In this document: positions 9,001 to 30,000 of the stretch, piece after piece
Layout: each line of letters begins with the position of its first letter
How positions within the stretch are numbered: position 1 is the first letter of the stretch
Assembly (NCBI GenBank): GCA_043812655.1
Contig: JBDRLW010000009.1
Location: 120 to 64,119, forward strand
DNA: 64,000 nucleotides
Source of the DNA: a bacterium
GTDB taxonomy: Bacteria; Margulisbacteria; WOR-1; O2-12-FULL-45-9; XYB2-FULL-48-7
Direction: 5' to 3'
Program-made: the position numbers

Positions 9001-12000
9001 TGACATGCCCAGATAAAACAAATAATAGACGATCGCCCCTTGATACATGCCGCCGTAAACGGCCTGGCCAAATAAACCCCCGCTTTTCTCGATGAAGTAA
9101 TAAGCTTTTATCATCTGGTCGGTACTAATTGAAACGAACGCGAAAAATATGCCTGGCAGTAAAATCAGCGTTTTCGCAAAAATAGTTAACGCTCTCTCCC
9201 TCTTGGGAAAAACAAAAGAAAAGTATAGGAAAAAAACGACAATTAAAGCCGAACTAAAACTGGATAACCTGCGCCAAAAAAGAGCCAACAAGAGATTGTC
9301 GGTTTGGCCGGTAAAAGCCGTGCTAAAGTTCCACAGGGCTACAGCCGATAAGAATAAACCCAAAATCCAATTAATTTCTGCTTTTCTATTCTTATTAAGG
9401 ATGGATAGCCCTAACCATAAGTTGACCCCGGCGGCAGTTAAACCAATTAAATTGTCAAACCGTAAGACAAACATTGATACGATGTATTATAACAAACTAT
9501 TCCGGTTTTCGCGCTGAAACGAGGAAAAATTGGTCGGCTAATGATTTAATTATCCCGCCTTTTTGTAAGCCCACAGCAGAAAGATCTGCTTCCAGGTCTG
9601 CCTCATTTGGAGAATAATAACGGCCAGAAGTAAAGCCTTCATTAAGCGCTTTGGCATACTCGAACGCCCCAGCCTGCTTTCTTTGCCTGACAAAGAAGCC
9701 AAGACTAATAAGGGCTGGTAAAACCAATATTTTTTGCCACCAAGGGATCGCCTTAATATAAGCTTTTATTGTTTCGTTGCGGGTTACGTCAAGGCTGCCT
9801 TCTTTATGTTTCAAGGAAAAGTATATTTTTCCACCCGGCTTGGTTACGCTTACCCATGTCCTTAATGCCGCCCTAAACTTTTCCCTGGTACAATAAAAAG
9901 CCATGCAAGCAGTAACAACATCTTGGGAATTATCAGGAAGAGTTGGAGGTTCAAACATATCTCCCGGCTCAACCGTAACTACTTGGTGATATCCCGCCTC
10001 TTTAATTTTTTTGGCGGCTTGCACTACGGCTGATGGGGCAAAATCCCTAACTATCGCCCTAAAACGATCTAAAATATTTTGCGGCAATGTTTTTTCTGCT
10101 CCTTCGCCTTCAGACAACTCGGCTAACAACAATGAAACTATTGGGGTTGCTCCAGCCGCGTCTTCAAAAACAGATATTTGGCCAATGGCCAATCGCTGCT
10201 TAATATCCACGATCATCATTTTAACAAAATCGTGGCGATGCGCGTCCGTGATCGCTCCGCCAATTTTTGCTTCTAATGTCCCCTCACTATGCGTCAGCTG
10301 CCATAAAGCTTGTTCTCTTGTAACATCATATCCAGACTCATCAAAAGTTGTTTCATTCCATCCTTCCACTTGGGACGGCTCCACAATCGGCACGCTTACG
10401 CCTGTTACTGGCGAGTGCGCCATTAAAGTATCAAGGAACCCCTTTGCCGCCTTTGTTAGCGCTTGGTCCTGACTTAAAAAATCGGTCGCTTCAAGGTTCA
10501 ATACCCCGCCAATAAAATGACGATCAAGCAATTCAAGCGGGATGTTTCTGATTTGGGATGGAGTAATCCCTTCTTCTGTTAAATTGCGTAGAGGAGGAAC
10601 AATTACTTCAATTAAAGACTGGTTGAGATTACTTTTTTTATTTTTAACAAACTCCGCTAATAAATGATTGATCGCCAAATAATGTTCTTTTTTATATTCT
10701 GACAATCGCCAAACAGTTAAATAATTTGGTTTTACCCCAATTCGCCTTAAATGTTTTCTGATCCCCGGCCATTTTCTTTGGATTGGAAGAAAATAAGGTT
10801 TTAAATATGCCCCAACTATGCTCATACCCCATTCTCGTCCGCTTTTTCCAAAAATTTCAGTTAAAATTGGGGAATTTTACCAGATCCCGCTTAAGGAAAT
10901 GCGTTGGGTGTTTTGTCGACTTAAATTCGTCTGATTAACAAAGGCATAATCAACCTTAGCGTGACCGATTTTGAATCCGGCTCCGGCTGTGATTCCTGAA
11001 TCTGCGTATCCGGCCCTGAAGCTAAGAGGACCTTGATTGATTTCAAATCCAAGGGCTAGCTCCGGCGAGTAAGTCGAACGAAGGGTCTGGCTGATATCAA
11101 TGGCTAGTTTACTGTTAACATAGAGAAGATCGCTTATGGCAATACCAAGGCGTGCTTTGGGCGGAACTTTTTCCGCTGTCCCTGTCCCCCATTTTTGGCA
11201 GTTGAGGAGTTCGTCAATCTTGGCGCCGATCGTGAATCGTGAGTCGTGAATCGTGAATGGTTTAAACATAATTCCTGGACTTAAACTATAACCATAAGCG
11301 CTCCCGCCATTGATCTCGAACATATCAGAAGTTAGATATTTTGCCGTTAAACCGATGGCAACGTTGTCGTTCAATTTATGCCCATACGAAAGCAGATAGG
11401 CATTAGAGAAATAACTGAACGTATTAATATTCTGGACTTCGTTGTGCTGGTCAACTTCGCTTGAAGTTTGGGAGATAGTCCCCAAGCCAACTTGGATCCA
11501 GGAAATACCAAACGTTCCACCAAGGAACGGTTTAACAAAGCTGACATAGTAATAATCAGCGTCAGTTGAAAGTTTTGTCTGCATTGTGGTAATTTCACTG
11601 CTGGTTACGAACCCGAGCCCCCCCGCGTTCCAGTAGGGAGCATCCGCCGTGTCCGCGATCGCCGTAAATGCGCCTCCCATGCCGAGGGGACGAGCGCCGA
11701 CCCCGGCCTTGAGTACCGCAATGTCGGTTCCAGCCTGACCAGTTTGAGCGTAAGCAAGGCCTGTTAATGTCACAATTAAACAAATCCCAATTAAACAATT
11801 TTTGATCAGTTTGGGAGTTGTAACATTGTTTAATTGTCTCGGCACTGCCGAGATAATGCTTAACCAACTCAATTGTCGTGACAGTGGAACGACCGTTTTC
11901 ATTTTATATTCCTCATAGCCTTCTTCCCTCTCCCACTCTATTTTCGGTAACGGTTACAAAGCCCGTTTCGGTGTTGGGCAACGGTTTACGTGTTTTAAAA

Positions 12001-27000: not shown

Positions 27001-30000
27001 CTACTCCCTCGTAGAAATGTATTTCCTGTGTATTTCTGGCATAAGAAGCCCCACCAGCTCCCGTGTGCGGAGTATCTATCGTAATAAATTTTTCAATATC
27101 ATCTTGATAATACCGATTCCCCCGCTGGTCTTTACCATACATATATGACATGACTGCGAGCCCCCCCATGGAGTGCCCAAGAACTATGAATTTTTTGGGG
27201 ATCTCGTTGTCAGGGCCTGTTGAATCAATTGGAAATCTTTTTGGTTTACTCAAACTACCTGGCCCATAATCATGGAACCATATTTTAAAATCTTCTTTTG
27301 CTTGTTCAAGCCAGCTATTACCAGTTCCATTTTGACCATTATCTAATCGTTTAGTAATTTCCCATGGTTTTCTTTGGTTCCCATTATCTCCGATATCATC
27401 ATTTTTTTTACTTACTGCCTCTGGGTTATTATATGTTCGATCACCAAATTCCCAACCCTCTTTTTCGATATTGAGAAATTGATTGGAAAACTCATATCTA
27501 TAAACATATCCATTAAGACCTGCTTCTTTTGTTAAATAATCATACACCTTATCAAAGCACTTATGGTCATCGCCAATACCATGAACAAGTATTATTAAAT
27601 GATTTTTTGCATAGGCAATATCATTATTATCAATCGCACCGCAGGCAATTGAAGCCGAATAAATCAAAACCAGTATTAAAAATACAGAAAATCGAAAACC
27701 CTTCATTTCAGTTGTTTTATATTGCTCCCATCTATATTAATTAGCCATACGCCATTACTTCTGAATTGACCATAAACTATTTTATTTGCTCCAGGATTGA
27801 TTTTAGGTAAATATCCTCTAAAATTCGATATTTTAGCGTGAAACTGAGGAGTTGCTACATTCACGTCAATATATCCATATTCATTTCCAGCGCTCCCATA
27901 AATTTCATTTGTTGCGATTGAAGAAACGGTCGCACTACTTATGCTCTGGTCTCCCAAGTTGGTTCTTCCTGTTCCATCAATATTTATAATAGCCGTTGGA
28001 GTATACAAACCATCTAAATATTCAAAAACAATTTTAGTCCCATACTTCCATGTAACAGCCTCTCCACTTGTTGCAATATTCAAATTTCCTGTGCCATCAA
28101 TATTTATCACATTAATTCCGCCGCGGTTTTTCAAATACACTAACCTTGCCTCATCCGGTCCCCAATCAAGAGAACTAATACTTTCAGTCGTTGGAGAAAA
28201 CTCATAAACCTTAGAATTATCAGCTCTTTTATAAATTGAAATAGTTTCATCACTGATTAAAGCAGCATAAGTTCCTTTGGGCGAAAAATATGGATAGCTG
28301 CTATATGGCAGAATGGCTTCATTGTCCCCATCAGTATCCATGGTCACATAAGAATAATCTGTTCCAAGGGTTATTGTTCCCATCGGTTCCTTACGATAAT
28401 GGGTGACAGCCTTCTGACAGTAAATTAATCCCTCCGGCGTCCAATTTGGATATTCGTAGCTTGTTTCATCATAGTAACTTGTTCCACACCCCCCCATCAT
28501 CATCATTGTTAACCCCAACACCATCAGGCCTAGGATCGGAAGAAACTGCTTCGTTTTCATCTTAAACTCCTTTCTTTTTTAATGTTACCTGAAGTTACAT
28601 GAGGTTGCGAGATGTTGCGGGAGGTTGATTTGATGCTCCCCCTTGGATTTTTCCAGGTTCCATCACGTTCCATCTTACTAAGAGAAACTACATATCTTCC
28701 TGCCATATAATCAGCGCTCTGAAATAATACCGCTAGCTTTTCAAACTCTTCCTTTGTTATTAAACCATCTTCCAAGCAGTCCTCAATATCACCTCCTAAT
28801 TCTTCGAGCGAACCCAAACTTATGTTGATACTGTGTCTAAATTCGCCAGCAGACCCCTTTTTATACCCCTCTCTAATGTTTTGTTTGGCCGATCTTGCGG
28901 CATCCCTCATCTGTGAGACAAGCCTTAAATGCGTTTTCTTGAACCGCTCTGAGCAGTTATAAACCAATCGTCGAATTTCACAAATATTTTGGTAAAACTT
29001 CAATTTCTCGTACGCCGCTTCCTTTTTCAGTAACTTCATGTAACTTCAATTAACCTAATGTAACTTTTTGTAACATGATTTGTTTTTTGATTTATTGAGC
29101 GGCTTTTAATTGTTGTCTTTTGTGGCAGCAACCTAATCATCACCCTGATCCCCCTTGTTAGAAAAAATGCGTCCAAACTTTGCAAAGCTATTAAGGATTT
29201 TTATGTCCCCTAGGGTATCTGAGCTTATGTTATATTTTAGCATGATTTAAGCATCCTGACTTCATCCCTTCCCTTCCAACCTTTTTACTTGTCTATTCTC
29301 TGTTAGTAGTTTCATTTGTTGAATGGCAATTTTATTAAGCTTCTTTAATCTTTCTCCTTGTGAAAGCCCCTCAGTAATAAATAATGCGTTCAGGTTTTCA
29401 AGATTTGAAAGGCATACCAGCTGCGAGACTTCAGCATGATCCCTAATGTTCCCCTTATTCCCTGGATTTTTAGCGCGCCAATCTCCGGCAGTTACGCCAA
29501 ATATAGCCATATTCAAGATGTCGGCTTCGGAGGCATATATATTATTTATCTGTGCCGTTGTCAGCTCCTTAGGTATTAGGTTTGCCTTTATAGCATCGGT
29601 ATGTATGTGGTAGTTTATTTTAGAAAGGGCGCGGGGTAAGTCCCATTCTAATTTCAAGCGATTGTTTTCATCTTCTTTTAAGCGTTGAAATTCCTTAATA
29701 AGATAGACCTTAAACTCCGCGCTAATCCACATGCCAAAATCGAAAGCAATATCCTTATGGGCATATGTCCCCCCGTATCGTCCAGCTGTCGCCTTCAATC
29801 CAATCGCGTTGGTTTTTTCAACCCACTCCTTAACGCTAATTTTATAGTTGTTCAAACCTGCCTGGCTTTTAATTATGGCGAATTCGCCGTAATTAAAATT
29901 GGGATTAAAAACACTCTCCCAAATACCAAGAAATTCAACAGTATTCCTGTTCCTAAGCCAATCAGAAATGAAAAACTCGCCGTCTTTCGCCTTTAGCATA

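What a model noticed while it worked through the whole genome (the two positions that open the first line are those of the whole stretch)
10877..29039. T9SS-type C-terminal sorting domains and an expanded PorV-like barrel family without a type IX secretion system
Eight proteins, among them a 5070-aa giant (g00410), an S8 protease and beta-helix/Ig-repeat proteins, end in one shared ~95-aa FlgD-Ig/T9SS-type C-terminal domain (CTD), and the genome holds ~10 PorV/PorQ-like outer-membrane barrels, five of them (g00022, g00502, g00952, g01061, g01091) carrying one to three peptidoglycan-binding SLH repeats behind the barrel; three barrels lie next to a CTD gene, yet no SprA/Sov, GldK/L/M/N or PorU is found. 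I read this as a CTD-PorV cargo-capture and anchoring module that works outside Bacteroidota and without the T9SS translocon and motor, the PorV-SLH fusions tying captured surface proteins to the cell wall. New: the CTD-PorV pair would be older and wid [...]
Evidence so far: All-vs-all BLAST of the last 110 aa groups g00211, g00410, g00773, g00788, g00951, g01115, g01315; own HMM adds g00774, domain E 1e-26 to 1e-38, always at the very C-terminus. g01115 passes TIGR04183 'T9SS type A sorting domain' (27.7 vs cut 23); g00022, g00408, g00952 pass NF033709 PorV/PorQ (92.8-106.5 vs cut 90); six-frame NF033709 search: 10 matches in G000, 7-31 in each of 14/14 family genomes; paralogues g00502, g01061, g01091, g00775, g00318, g01306 by BLAST. 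Adjacent pairs: g00410/g00408, g00951/g00952, g00773-774/g00775. Predicted complex g00408 (res 22-341) + last 100 aa of g00410: ipSAE 0.85/0.85/0.86, best of 3 controls 0.00, runs share at least 91% of contacts, partner pLDDT at [...]
(Added by a program. Inside this text positions count along the whole contig: contig position 120 is position 1 of the stretch shown here. "Call 12" and the like, gene names such as g00115 and contig names such as C1 are that model's own, and its searches are not shown. The text may have been shortened before it was handed on; [...] marks where a part breaks off. The agent that wrote the report below was given it as the finding of a first reader that could run no searches.)

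Follow-up and report, generated by a model that had tools for sequence, protein, structure and literature searches.

The report
Type IX-like cargo and barrel gene pairs
A small uncultured relative of cyanobacteria encodes surface proteins, one of them 5070 residues long, whose tail domain and neighbouring outer-membrane barrel gene resemble parts of a secretion system thought to be confined to Bacteroidota and its kin, and the same gene pair recurs in many other phyla.

Summary
In the genome (apparently Margulisiibacteriota), 8 signal-peptide proteins end in one T9SS-type/FlgD-Ig C-terminal domain (CTD). There are 10 PorV/PorQ-family barrels; I find SLH repeats on 4, not 5.

- In five relatives, 38 of 71 CTD-ending genes are followed within 1 kb, same strand, by a PorV-like gene (about 0.3 expected).
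- In 80 loci from other lineages, 56 of 75 testable ones show the same order (Poribacteria, Elusimicrobiota, Riflebacteria, KSB1, Zixibacteria and others).

"Without a translocon" is not supported. A phylum-wide, single-copy 1349-aa signal-peptide protein ending in Phe lies tail-to-tail with the CTD-bearing S8 protease gene. It shares collinear weak homology with SprA (sub-threshold; UniProt auto-names its orthologues SprA). Its fold could not be predicted.

PorU is absent, with working controls. GldK/L/M/N were not found, but the GldK/L/M models also failed in SprA/PorU-positive control genomes (GldN was not run on them), so the motor question stays open.

Best reading: a reduced, sortase-less type IX-like sorting system with cis-encoded cognate shuttles, some tied to the wall by SLH repeats. 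This is a new variant of a known kind. I found no paper describing it.

The parts
10877..11902 (-). PorV/PorQ-family outer-membrane barrel, 341 aa, with no SLH extension. It is the presumed cognate shuttle or anchor for the giant's CTD.
   Evidence: NF033709 at 106.5 bits against cut-off 90. It fails the PorV, PorQ and PorV2 equivalog models (38.4/250, 33.4/220, 69.3/325). No Pfam family at E<=0.01. Family profile hits PorV 6H3I_F at E 8.3e-10. Homologues at 52-68% identity carry the NCBI name PorV/PorQ family protein in Margulisiibacteriota.
11913..12437 (-). Small four-helix-bundle gene (23S rRNA-IVP family, 174 aa) lying between the cargo gene and the barrel gene.
   Evidence: PF05635 at 52.4 bits, TIGR02436 at 41.3 bits. 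The same family sits between cargo and barrel in relative G023 (PF05635 93.8 bits).
12494..27706 (-). 5070-aa giant cargo protein: signal peptide, a lipase-like alpha/beta-hydrolase hint near the N-terminus, Ig-like, Big_13 and FG-GAP repeats, and 10 internal FlgD_ig-like copies.
   Evidence: In relatives, orthologous giants (3367-9251-aa open frames) are each followed by a barrel gene.
12497..12826 (-). Terminal CTD of the giant (residues 4961-5070): motifs PNPF ... W-D-G ... G-I-Y ... G-K-V-A-V-L-K at the stop codon.
   Evidence: Domain E 3.2e-45 in the own-genome profile. Alignment A1 has invariant P14, P16, F17, W72, G74, Y87 and K105. Pfam FlgD_ig passes on the giant's C-terminal half (119.7 bits against 27, 4 stretches, best at this terminal domain); Por_Secre_tail scores 24.1 against 27. 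Profile hits the PorU CTD of 6ZA2 at E 5.8e-7.
27703..28560 (-). 285-aa ORF overlapping the giant's start codon by 4 bases. Only weak beta-propeller-like matches; role unknown.
   Evidence: WD40-type matches at E 3e-4 to 3e-3, all but one far below their cut-offs. Included only because it looks co-transcribed with the giant.
28557..29039 (-). Second four-helix-bundle gene (160 aa) at the head of the gene string.
   Evidence: PF05635 at 66.7 bits, TIGR02436 at 56.1 bits.

Best explanation
This is a reduced, type IX-like surface-protein sorting system in a Margulisiibacteriota bacterium.

Proposed steps:
1. Cargo proteins are exported by Sec. All 8 have signal-peptide-like N-termini.
2. Each cargo ends in an Ig-fold CTD of the T9SS type-A / FlgD-Ig kind.
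3. About half of the cargo genes are followed in the same operon by their own PorV/PorQ-family outer-membrane barrel. By analogy with PorV, the barrel's surface loops bind the CTD and hold or carry the cargo at the cell surface. This step is inferred.
4. There is no PorU sortase, so the CTD is probably kept and the attachment is non-covalent, as for the uncleaved CTDs of PorU, PorZ and PorA. This step is inferred.
5. Some barrels carry two or three C-terminal SLH repeats. These would lie in the periplasm and tie the barrel-cargo complex to pyruvylated wall polymer. This step is inferred from domain order and from a CsaB-like gene.
6. Passage across the outer membrane most likely uses the phylum-wide, single-copy 1349-aa signal-peptide protein (G000:C30:49302-53351) and perhaps its 997-aa paralogue. 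I read these as shortened, very divergent relatives of the SprA/Sov translocon. This is the weakest step, at about 55-60% on its own.

Whether a GldLM-type motor exists is open.

Shown: the domain and family matches, the gene pairing and its conservation, and the absence of PorU and of a canonical SprA. Inferred: binding, surface display, wall tethering and translocon function.
For: GENE PAIRING
- Own genome: 3 of 10 barrels and 4 of 8 CTD genes are paired.
- Five relatives: 38 of 71 terminal-CTD matches have a PorV-like match 0-1000 bp downstream on the same strand, typically 65-260 bp away, against 0.3 expected.
- Other lineages: 56 of 75 testable loci.

FAMILY IDENTITY
- NF033709 is passed by 3 of 10 barrels.
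- The barrel profile's only credible solved relative is PorV (E 8.3e-10; next hit E 0.92).
- The CTD profile hits the PorU CTD (E 5.8e-7), FlgD (7e-5) and the PorZ CTD (2e-3).
- TIGR04183 is passed by 3 of 8 CTD proteins.
- A lysine near the C-terminus is invariant (K105). PMC10994853 (passages read) reports one highly conserved, functionally important lysine in type-A CTDs and shows PorV loops wrapping the CTD. I did not establish that the two lysines correspond.

CANDIDATE TRANSLOCON
- SprA model TIGR04189: 49.6 bits, E 9e-14, 4 stretches.
- Nearest ESM-Atlas cluster (score 0.98) is auto-named 'SprA N-terminal domain-containing protein'.
- UniRef names 4 orthologues 'Cell surface protein SprA'.
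- The family is collinear over its full length across the phylum, at 1326-1866 aa, and ends in an invariant Phe.
- It lies tail-to-tail with a CTD gene of 713-774 aa in 5 of the 6 genomes examined.
- jackhmmer (Z = 1e6) reaches an Endomicrobiales SprA-like protein (E 4.8e-49), a bona fide KSB1 SprA (E 3.3e-16) and a Poribacteria SprA-like protein (E 1.8e-11).
- hhalign against 19 true SprA sequences gives three collinear local matches: 96.2% probability; 45.9%, rising to 89.4% with intermediates added; and 20.8%. Reversed-sequence controls gave at most 1.1%.
- The 997-aa paralogue has 'outer membrane protein' feature neighbours. Its G023 orthologue sits in cargo / barrel / NHL-propeller / paralogue operons and has a weak OMP_b-brl match.

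SORTASE
- The PorU model matches only CTD tails in this genome (model positions 952-1095, all 11 matches). It scores 976 and 843 bits in the control genomes.

WALL TETHER
- SLH passes on 4 barrels. A CsaB-like gene scores 137.9 bits.
Against: - No structure or complex could be predicted, so neither the barrel-CTD contact nor the fold of the 1349-aa family was tested here.
- The SprA similarity is far below the curated cut-off (49.6 against 200).
- The strongest shared element is a repeated beta-sandwich domain that also weakly hits phage tail-tube and distal-tail models. 5 of 8 long family members show only those hits and no SprA hit.
- Pfam SprA_N finds nothing in the genome.
- The family profile finds no solved relative; SprA of 6H3I is not hit at E<=1.
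- The jackhmmer chain never reached the Rhodothermales SprA.
- 7 of 10 barrels and 4 of 8 CTD genes in this genome are unpaired.
- The CTD-like domain also occurs 10 times inside the giant.
- The PorV/PorQ family model also rings over its cut-off in Bacteroides thetaiotaomicron (control lines). PMC11285876 notes Bacteroides spp. as the exception among Bacteroidota for T9SS core genes. So a family hit alone does not imply type IX function.
- In the canonical system, energy is needed to pull PorV and cargo off SprA (PMC10994853, passages read), and no motor was detected here.
- The genomes counted are related to one another, so the counts overstate independence.
Confidence: 0.55

Rival explanations
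1. A CTD-PorV capture and anchoring module that truly lacks any type IX translocon. Cargo crosses the outer membrane by another route, such as a secretin-based type II system, and is then caught by its cognate barrel.
For: No SprA over cut-off in the own genome or in any of 41 phylum genomes. Two secretin genes are present (163 and 146 bits). The SprA link of the 1349-aa family rests mostly on a beta-sandwich domain that is not exclusive to SprA. The gene pairing itself is equally well explained.
Against: The 1349-aa family is single-copy and conserved across the phylum, and is syntenic with a CTD gene in 5 of 6 genomes. It shows three collinear profile matches to SprA, with clean reversed controls. 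Every other lineage tested that has the pairs also has an SprA-related protein. I know of no type II system that recognises a C-terminal Ig domain (recalled).
Confidence: 0.2
2. The PorV-like barrel is itself a cargo-dedicated export port: a two-partner-like system in which the C-terminal domain targets each cargo to its own barrel, with help from BAM.
For: The one-cargo-one-barrel operon layout with giant repeat adhesins (cargo open frames of 112 to 9251 aa) resembles two-partner secretion (recalled). No motor or sortase was detected.
Against: The barrels are about 300 aa, of the PorV/FadL size class (14 strands, recalled), with no POTRA domain seen. Homology points to a carrier, not a channel (PMC10994853). 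Half of the CTD genes have no adjacent barrel.
Confidence: 0.08
3. A complete but very divergent T9SS, with ring, motor and accessory proteins, is present, and the searches simply missed it.
For: The GldK, GldL and GldM models failed to ring over cut-off even in Rhodothermales and KSB1 genomes that have SprA and PorU. The genome is 93% complete. Energy is needed for release in the canonical system (PMC10994853).
Against: PorU is detectable in the controls but absent here. Canonical SprA is absent over cut-off in 41 of 41 genomes of the phylum, 36 of them at least 90% complete. The genomes are small (1.5-2 Mb).
Confidence: 0.1
4. The barrels are general FadL-like porins or wall tethers, and the terminal domain is just one more Ig module. 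Adjacency would then reflect co-regulated envelope genes and not a physical partnership.
For: The CTD-like domain is also an internal repeat. Homologues carry precomputed Pfam UPF0164, a Treponema outer-membrane family (recalled). 7 of 10 barrels in this genome are unpaired. The PorV family model rings in the Bacteroides thetaiotaomicron control genome, and Bacteroides spp. are noted as the exception for T9SS core genes (PMC11285876).
Against: The fixed order (CTD stop, 65-260 bp, barrel start, same strand) recurs 38 times in 71 against 0.3 expected, and across phyla with unrelated cargo types. In the loci examined the paired domain is the terminal copy: the criterion required it to end at the stop codon. 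The closest solved sequences are PorV and the PorU/PorZ CTDs, which are known binding partners.
Confidence: 0.07

Closest known systems
Bacteroidota T9SS: type-A CTD cargo, the PorV carrier and the SprA/Sov translocon (PMC10994853, passages read)
   Same: Sec signal peptide plus a C-terminal Ig-fold domain with the same motif layout and a conserved lysine near the C-terminus. The barrels are PorV/PorQ-family members whose nearest solved relative is PorV. There is a large signal-peptide protein with weak collinear SprA homology.
   Different: Many PorV-like barrels (10 here; 13-17 model matches per relative) instead of one PorV for all type-A cargo. The barrels are encoded next to their cargo. 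No PorU sortase. The SprA-like protein is 1349 aa against about 2300-2700 aa and scores 49.6 against a cut-off of 200. No GldKLMN was detected, but that result has no working control. The phylum is far outside the FCB group.
Type-B CTD cargo with cognate PorP/SprF-like shuttles in Flavobacterium johnsoniae (PMC12618676, abstract read; PMC9143113, listing only)
   Same: Cargo genes are genetically linked to a dedicated outer-membrane shuttle barrel, giving specific cargo-shuttle pairs.
   Different: The barrel family here is PorV/PorQ and not PorP/SprF (TIGR03519: no match). The CTD is closer to type A / FlgD_ig (TIGR04131 17 bits against 35).
The porU-porV pair of the attachment complex (adjacency in Porphyromonas gingivalis is recalled)
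   Same: A CTD-bearing protein is encoded just upstream of a PorV-type barrel. In Poribacteria and one unnamed MAG the upstream gene is a Peptidase_C25 protein with this CTD (3 of 16 cargo ORFs scanned), and the PorU model scores 306 and 293 bits below cut-off.
   Different: In Margulisiibacteriota the upstream genes are adhesin-like giants, Ig-repeat proteins and CTD-only mini-proteins. No C25 catalytic domain was found in this genome.
OmpM/Slp: SLH-porin outer-membrane tethers of diderm Terrabacteria (preprint 10.1101/2021.05.31.446380, passages read)
   Same: An outer-membrane barrel fused to peptidoglycan-directed SLH repeats, in a genome with a CsaB-like gene. That paper reports OmpM homologues in Margulisbacteria and Saganbacteria.
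   Different: The SLH repeats are C-terminal to a PorV-like barrel, instead of one N-terminal SLH domain before a porin. The genome also has two proteins of the classical layout (N-terminal SLH, 409 and 460 aa).
FadL / UPF0164 outer-membrane barrels (recalled)
   Same: Similar size class. Homologues carry the precomputed Pfam label PF03687.
   Different: No Pfam family reaches E<=0.01 on the window's barrel. The family profile hits PorV and no FadL chain among solved structures.

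Membership tests
PorV/PorQ family (NCBIfam NF033709, subfamily model) | Whole-protein score at or above the curated cut-off of 90 bits | tested here: met
   Window barrel 106.5; C25 barrel 102.2; C1 barrel 92.8. The other 7 score 19.6-71.2.
PorV proper, PorQ proper, PorV2 (NF033710, NF033711, NF052325; equivalog models) | Score at or above the equivalog cut-offs (250, 220, 325) | tested here: not met
   Window barrel scores 38.4, 33.4 and 69.3. It belongs to the wider family but is not an orthologue of any named member.
T9SS type-A sorting domain (TIGR04183 / Pfam Por_Secre_tail) | C-terminal domain scoring over cut-off (23 bits; Pfam 27) | tested here: inconclusive
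   TIGR04183 is passed by 3 of 8 (27.7, 24.3, 23.2). The giant scores 17.2. Pfam Por_Secre_tail is passed by 1 of 8 (27.4). FlgD_ig is passed on the giant's C-terminal half (119.7 bits, 4 stretches, best at the CTD) and sits exactly at its cut-off (27.0) in a second; CHU_C is passed by 1 CTD and also on the giant's half (43.3 bits, best at an internal stretch).
Canonical T9SS | SprA/Sov translocon (TIGR04189 at or above 200 bits) | tested here: not met
   Best in the own genome is 49.6 bits. 0 of 41 phylum genomes are over cut-off. Controls work: Rhodothermales 1868.9 bits, KSB1 over cut-off, and 22 of 25 Bacteroidota genomes.
Canonical T9SS | PorU C-terminal signal peptidase / sortase (NF033707 at or above 420 bits) | tested here: not met
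   All 11 own-genome matches cover only model positions 952-1095, the CTD part; best 48.2 bits. Controls score 976.2 and 842.6 bits.
Canonical T9SS | GldK/L/M/N (PorK/L/M/N) ring and motor | tested here: inconclusive
   No match in the own genome. GldM is over cut-off in 0 of 41 phylum genomes. But TIGR03517, PF12081, TIGR03525 and TIGR03513 also failed to reach cut-off in the Rhodothermales and KSB1 genomes that have SprA and PorU, so these negatives have no working control. The GldN model (TIGR03523) was not run on those control genomes and rang in none of the tool's 14 control genomes.
SprA/Sov family, wide sense (for the 1349-aa protein) | Homology along the protein and a very large capped outer-membrane barrel (36 strands in SprA, PMC10994853) | tested here: inconclusive
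   Three collinear local profile matches (96.2%; 45.9% rising to 89.4% with intermediates; 20.8%) with reversed controls at or below 1.1%. Signal peptide and terminal Phe. No Pfam SprA_N match. No hit among solved structures.
Type-B CTD / PorP-SprF system | TIGR04131 CTD (at or above 35 bits) and a PorP/SprF barrel (TIGR03519 at or above 90.55 bits) | tested here: not met
   The giant scores 17.0 on TIGR04131. No PorP/SprF match in the genome at E<=10.
OmpM (SLH domain plus beta-barrel outer-membrane tether) | SLH domain and an outer-membrane barrel in one protein; the classical form has the SLH domain at the N-terminus | tested here: inconclusive
   SLH passes Pfam on 4 PorV-like barrels, but it lies C-terminal, at residues about 370-640. 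The loose definition (SLH plus barrel) is met; the classical domain order is not.

The most novel reading that the evidence does not exclude
The type IX pathway is not an invention of Bacteroidota and the FCB group. A minimal core would be older and spread across very distant phyla (Margulisiibacteriota, Elusimicrobiota, Riflebacteria, Poribacteria and others). This core would consist of an SprA-like outer-membrane protein, PorV-like carriers encoded beside their cargo, and an Ig-fold CTD. It would work without a sortase and perhaps without the GldLM motor. The Bacteroidota machine would then be a later elaboration in which one PorV serves all type-A cargo. The SLH-fused carriers would be a Terrabacteria-style way to bolt displayed proteins to the cell wall.
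Probability: 0.25. Interest if true: 0.85.

Novelty: new variant of a known kind. Interest (0 to 1): 0.68.

Why it matters
[quoted passage not shown] Here the three recognisable outer-membrane parts appear in a sister lineage of Cyanobacteria: the CTD signal, PorV-family carriers and an SprA-related protein. The cargo-carrier gene pair recurs in at least eight further named lineages.

If the reading holds:
- It gives a natural minimal version of the pathway, with no sortase, dedicated carriers and possibly no motor. That version could show which parts are essential for recognition and release.
- It moves the origin of the system much deeper in bacterial evolution.
- It explains how many uncultured diderm lineages display giant adhesins and proteases.
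- The PorV-SLH fusions add a new architecture to the known ways of tying the outer membrane, and what hangs on it, to the cell wall.

Practically, 'T9SS sorting domain' and 'PorV/PorQ' labels in MAGs from these phyla should not be read as evidence of a Bacteroidota-type T9SS.

Tried and rejected
TOOLS THAT WERE CLOSED
No fold of the 1349-aa family or of the barrel was obtained, and no fold search was run.

SEARCHES THAT LED NOWHERE
- PF27730, a label precomputed on some homologues, is not in the local Pfam library.
- Pfam SprA_N found nothing, but it also rang in none of the tool's control genomes.
- To get a motor control I looked beside GldK-like hits in the Rhodothermales and KSB1 genomes. 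They turned out to be a sulfatase-modifying-factor protein with a CTD and a kinase fusion, not porKLMN operons.
- No RNA holder was listed for the locus.
- The profile of the 1349-aa family gave only chance-level hits (E>0.1) to unrelated viral chains among solved structures. I disregarded them.

ANALYSES REJECTED
- A home-made count of amphipathic beta-strands gave 16 for PorV (14 expected) but 85 for SprA (36 expected). It is not discriminating, so I rejected it.
- One script timed out on a large re-alignment. I redid it on the existing alignment.
- I considered a co-phylogeny or Mantel test of CTDs against their barrels. I dropped it because co-duplication of a two-gene cassette would give the same signal without any binding.

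LITERATURE SEARCHES
- PorV + Margulisbacteria: 0 papers.
- Searches turned up no paper describing CTD-PorV pairs or SprA-like proteins in Margulisiibacteriota, Elusimicrobiota, Riflebacteria or Poribacteria.
- The library lacks most subscription journals. Supplements, for example of the OmpM survey, were not read.

Full report
WHAT LIES IN THE WINDOW
On the minus strand there is a string of genes:
- a 160-aa four-helix-bundle gene (28557..29039);
- a 285-aa ORF (27703..28560) that overlaps the next start codon;
- a 5070-aa ORF (12494..27706);
- a 174-aa four-helix-bundle gene (11913..12437);
- a 341-aa ORF (10877..11902).

The giant has a signal-peptide-like N-terminus and a weak lipase-type alpha/beta-hydrolase hint at residues 168-217. 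It carries Big_13, FG-GAP and FlgD_ig repeats, and it ends in a FlgD_ig domain that also scores just below cut-off on Por_Secre_tail (24.1 against 27) and TIGR04183 (17.2 against 23).

The 341-aa protein has no Pfam family at E<=0.01. It passes NCBIfam NF033709 (PorV/PorQ family, 106.5 against 90). It fails the equivalog models for PorV (38.4/250), PorQ (33.4/220) and PorV2 (69.3/325).

THE GENOME-WIDE OBSERVATION
The window is G000:C9:120-64119 in a 1.62-Mb assembly of 46 contigs, 93.07% complete with 2.63% contamination.

A profile seeded with the giant's last 110 residues finds the domain at the extreme C-terminus of 8 ORFs (domain E 9e-25 to 3e-45). It also finds 10 further copies inside the giant (domain E 2e-8 to 6.5e-18), and those internal copies stop at model position 100 of 110 or earlier.

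The 8 proteins include an S8 protease with a fervidolysin-type prodomain, a beta-helix protein, a CarboxypepD_reg protein, a Big_5/Big_2 protein and a 110-aa protein that is only a signal peptide plus CTD. TIGR04183 is passed by 3 of the 8.

The CTD alignment has invariant P14, P16, F17, W72, G74, Y87 and K105. From recall, this layout resembles the type-A CTD motifs.

Ten PorV-like barrels are found by three routes, and 3 of them pass NF033709. Pfam SLH passes on 4 of the barrels, C-terminal to the barrel, with two or three repeats on three of them. A 542-aa protein with three C-terminal SLH repeats is not PorV-like (hhalign probability 0.3%).

Three barrels have a CTD gene directly upstream, one of them behind two CTD genes.

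WHO IT IS
Homologues of the barrel (52-68% identity) and of the 1349-aa protein discussed below (50-64%) are named by NCBI as coming from Candidatus Margulisiibacteriota, Saganbacteria or candidate division WOR-1. The closest loci in the species-genome collection carry the same names. This is the sister group of Cyanobacteria (recalled), far from Bacteroidota.

IS THE T9SS CORE ABSENT?
In the own genome, nothing reaches the cut-off for SprA, GldK, GldL, GldM, GldN, PorU or PorP/SprF.

Across 41 genomes of the phylum (36 of them at least 90% complete):
- PorV-family matches are universal: 41 of 41 at E<=1e-5, and 33 of 41 over cut-off.
- SprA is over cut-off in 0 of 41.
- GldM is over cut-off in 0 of 41.

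None of the tool's 14 standing control genomes has a T9SS, so I made my own controls from loci found:
- SprA rings strongly in a Rhodothermales genome (1868.9 bits) and in a KSB1 genome, and in 22 of 25 Bacteroidota genomes.
- PorU rings at 976 and 843 bits in those same two genomes.

The SprA and PorU negatives are therefore meaningful.

The same is not true of the motor and ring. GldM (TIGR03517 and Pfam GldM_1st), GldK and GldL did not reach cut-off in either control genome. I did not run the GldN model on those two control genomes, and it rang in none of the tool's 14 control genomes. The 'no motor, no ring' statement is untested, not shown.

All 11 PorU-model matches in the own genome cover only the model's CTD end (positions 952-1095). 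This also shows how close these CTDs are to the CTD of PorU.

THE PAIRING IS THE STRONGEST RESULT
I searched five near-complete relatives with the PorV model and with the CTD profile. Two are from the same family and three from the same class. I dropped 5 CTD rows whose match ended at model position 95 or earlier, because those are internal copies.

Of the remaining 71 terminal CTD matches, 38 are followed within 0-1000 bp on the same strand by a PorV-like match. The gap is usually 65-260 bp. About 0.3 such pairs would be expected from random placement. The cargo open frames range from 112 to 9251 aa.

These genomes are kin, and two share a genus. The 38 are therefore not independent events.

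Next I scanned the species-genome collection with the barrel alignment. It returned 80 loci with 26-63% identity to the window's barrel. My first filter was too strict and gave 19. After correcting it, 56 of the 75 loci that hold at least 700 bp of upstream sequence have a gene ending in this CTD directly upstream on the same strand:

| Lineage | Loci with the pair / testable loci |
|---|---|
| Poribacteria | 24 / 31 |
| Elusimicrobiota | 8 / 9 |
| Riflebacteria | 6 / 6 |
| KSB1 | 4 / 4 |
| Zixibacteria | 3 / 3 |
| Margulisiibacteriota | 3 / 5 |
| MAGs labelled Clostridia | 2 / 2 |
| 'FCB group' | 1 / 1 |
| Unnamed | 5 / 8 |
| Rhodothermales | 0 / 4 |
| Eisenbacteria | 0 / 1 |
| FCPU426 | 0 / 1 |

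I scanned 16 of the upstream cargo ORFs with Pfam. In two Poribacteria loci and one unnamed MAG the cargo is a Peptidase_C25 protein, that is, a PorU-like gene followed by a PorV-like gene. The Poribacteria rows are therefore probably one orthologous locus counted many times. Elsewhere the cargo is Ig-repeat, BNR or CARDB proteins.

The weak SprA-model matches fall in two signal-peptide ORFs that have no Pfam family over its cut-off: G000:C30:49302-53351 (1349 aa) and C22:22500-25493 (997 aa).

Evidence that links the 1349-aa protein to SprA:
- It scores 49.6 bits (E 9e-14, 4 stretches) on TIGR04189.
- Its nearest ESM-Atlas cluster (score 0.98) is auto-named 'SprA N-terminal domain-containing protein'.
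- UniRef names four orthologues 'Cell surface protein SprA', while NCBI calls them hypothetical.
- The family is single-copy. The four intact orthologues among the five relatives are 1326-1431 aa, and in G023 the gene is split into two ORFs. In other classes of the phylum the family is 1558-1866 aa long and collinear over its whole length.
- It ends in an invariant Phe.
- In 5 of the 6 genomes examined it lies tail-to-tail with a CTD gene of 713-774 aa, which in G000 is the S8 protease.
- An iterated search with a deliberately large database size (Z = 1e6) reaches an Endomicrobiales 1850-aa protein (E 4.8e-49). That protein itself scores 153.6 bits on SprA in three collinear blocks. The search also reaches a true KSB1 SprA (E 3.3e-16) and a Poribacteria 2177-aa protein (E 1.8e-11; 158.4 bits on SprA in five blocks). 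It does not reach the Rhodothermales SprA.
- Profile-profile comparison with 19 true SprA sequences gives three collinear local matches. The repeat domain matches at 96.2% probability (E 2.6e-9). The 175 residues before the repeat domain match at 45.9%, or 89.4% once the two intermediates are added to the SprA profile. The last 520 residues match at 20.8%. Reversed-alignment controls stay at or below 1.1%.

Evidence against:
- The repeat domain also weakly hits phage tail-tube and distal-tail models.
- 5 of 8 long family members show only those hits.
- Pfam SprA_N is silent.
- No solved structure is hit by the family profile.

The 997-aa paralogue has 'outer membrane protein' feature neighbours. 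Its structural neighbours (TM about 0.52) are unnamed proteins of about 960-1000 aa from Fibrobacterota and Ignavibacteriota. In relative G023 its orthologue closes two operons of the form giant-CTD, PorV-like, NHL-propeller, paralogue, and it has a sub-threshold OMP_b-brl match.

I put the chance that this family is a shortened SprA relative acting as the outer-membrane conduit at roughly 55-60%.

HOW IT MOST LIKELY WORKS
In Flavobacterium johnsoniae, PorV docks on the lateral opening of the 36-strand SprA barrel. Its loops wrap the cargo's CTD. Loading needs no energy. Energy is needed to pull PorV and cargo away from the translocon (PMC10994853, passages read). All type-A CTDs use the single PorV, while type-B cargo genes are often linked to cognate PorP/SprF shuttles (PMC12618676, abstract read).

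The system here combines features of both. The CTDs and barrels belong to the type-A / PorV kind: the only credible solved relative of the barrels is PorV (E 0.012 with the single sequence), and the CTD profile hits the CTDs of PorU and PorZ. The genetic layout, however, is that of cognate cargo-shuttle pairs.

With no PorU, the CTD is probably kept and the cargo stays on its barrel. The SLH tails follow the end of the barrel and so should be periplasmic (inference). Together with a CsaB-like pyruvyl transferase (137.9 bits), they would fasten some of these complexes to the wall. The genome also has two proteins of the classical OmpM layout. The OmpM survey reports OmpM in this lineage (preprint 10.1101/2021.05.31.446380, passages read).

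Two secretins are present, so a type II route cannot be excluded.

COMPARISON WITH WHAT IS IN PRINT
[quoted passage not shown] It also states that species without T9SS genes lack CTD proteins (PMC11285876, passages read). A 2024 mini-review places the T9SS in the FCB superphylum (PMC11205867, passages read). CTD signals were proposed in Fibrobacter (PMC6851124, passages read).

My searches found no paper on these components in Margulisiibacteriota, Elusimicrobiota, Riflebacteria or Poribacteria. Public annotation, however, already labels the parts piecemeal: 'PorV/PorQ family protein' by NCBI and 'Cell surface protein SprA' by UniRef.

LIMITS
- No fold or complex prediction was possible.
- The motor question has no valid control.
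- No expression data were found.
- The counts come from related genomes.
- The phylum name rests on the names of homologues.

VERDICT
The idea of a cargo-PorV partnership outside Bacteroidota is well supported by synteny. The claim that it works without a translocon is probably wrong. The claim that it works without a motor is untested. The system is best filed as a new, reduced variant of the type IX kind.

Noticed in passing
window 11913-12437 and 28557-29039; also G000:C4:34278-34682 and G000:C22:25733-26092; L127:2235-2645: Small four-helix-bundle genes (23S rRNA-IVP / TIGR02436 family) sit inside or beside the cargo-barrel gene strings. There are 9 such ORFs in the genome. 2 directly touch a CTD or barrel gene, one lies two genes upstream of the giant, and one lies just upstream of the 997-aa SprA-like paralogue. 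In relative G023 one sits between cargo and barrel, and a PDDEXK_3 gene follows the barrel. They may be selfish inserts or accessory genes; this is unexplained.
   Followed up: partly
G000:C20:38938-39270 (locus L016); G007:C1:1433177-1433452; G015:C2:114899-115180: CTD-only mini-proteins in open frames of 110-115 aa, each directly upstream of a PorV-like barrel. For the G000 protein I saw the sequence: a signal peptide plus nothing but the CTD. From a paper title only (PMC7712824), this recalls PorA of Porphyromonas gingivalis, a CTD protein tied to signalling.
   Followed up: no
L108:1696-7245 (Endomicrobiales), L109:1747-8277 (Poribacteria), G042:C1:1123172-1127452: Elusimicrobiota and Poribacteria genomes encode long proteins that match the SprA model collinearly at 153.6 and 158.4 bits, just under the cut-off of 200. 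Poribacteria also has PorU-like C25 proteins at 293-306 bits. Type IX-like outer-membrane parts therefore seem to exist well outside the FCB group.
   Followed up: partly
control genomes G041 (Rhodothermales) and G045 (KSB1): Both have SprA and PorU over cut-off, but GldK, GldL and GldM do not reach cut-off with TIGRFAM or Pfam models. Either these models are too narrow, or these lineages also lack the classical ring and motor.
   Followed up: partly
L127:4244-5215 and L128:3250-4233 (G023); homologue at G000:C20:14388-15353: A signal-peptide NHL-repeat six-bladed beta-propeller (NHL 149 bits) is encoded between the PorV-like gene and the 1132/1135-aa SprA-like paralogue in two G023 operons. 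G000 has four homologues elsewhere in the genome. The window's own 285-aa ORF upstream of the giant has faint beta-propeller matches.
   Followed up: partly
G000:C27:18084-19313 and G000:C27:21063-22445: Two proteins with a single N-terminal SLH repeat and a C-terminal Phe, which is the classical OmpM layout. They are not PorV-like.
   Followed up: partly
G000:C30:27339-28532 and G000:C30:25315-27342: A 397-aa signal-peptide protein with three SLH repeats overlaps by 4 bases the start of a PorV-like barrel that itself has only a weak SLH match. This could be a split version of the barrel-SLH idea, or a partner pair.
   Followed up: no
L021 (G000:C30:44000-57400): The 1349-aa SprA-like gene follows, 16 bp downstream on the same strand, a fatty-acid synthesis gene set: acyl transferase, ketoreductase, NMO-type reductase and ketoacyl synthase.
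   Followed up: no
window 29262-30077 and 6766-9474: A KilA-N domain protein lies just upstream of the gene string. A 902-aa 7TM-GAF histidine kinase lies two genes downstream of the barrel. No link to the system is shown.
   Followed up: no
control lines: The PorV/PorQ family model rings over its cut-off in Bacteroides thetaiotaomicron. PMC11285876 notes Bacteroides spp. as the exception among Bacteroidota for T9SS core genes. PorV-family barrels without a T9SS therefore already have a precedent.
   Followed up: no
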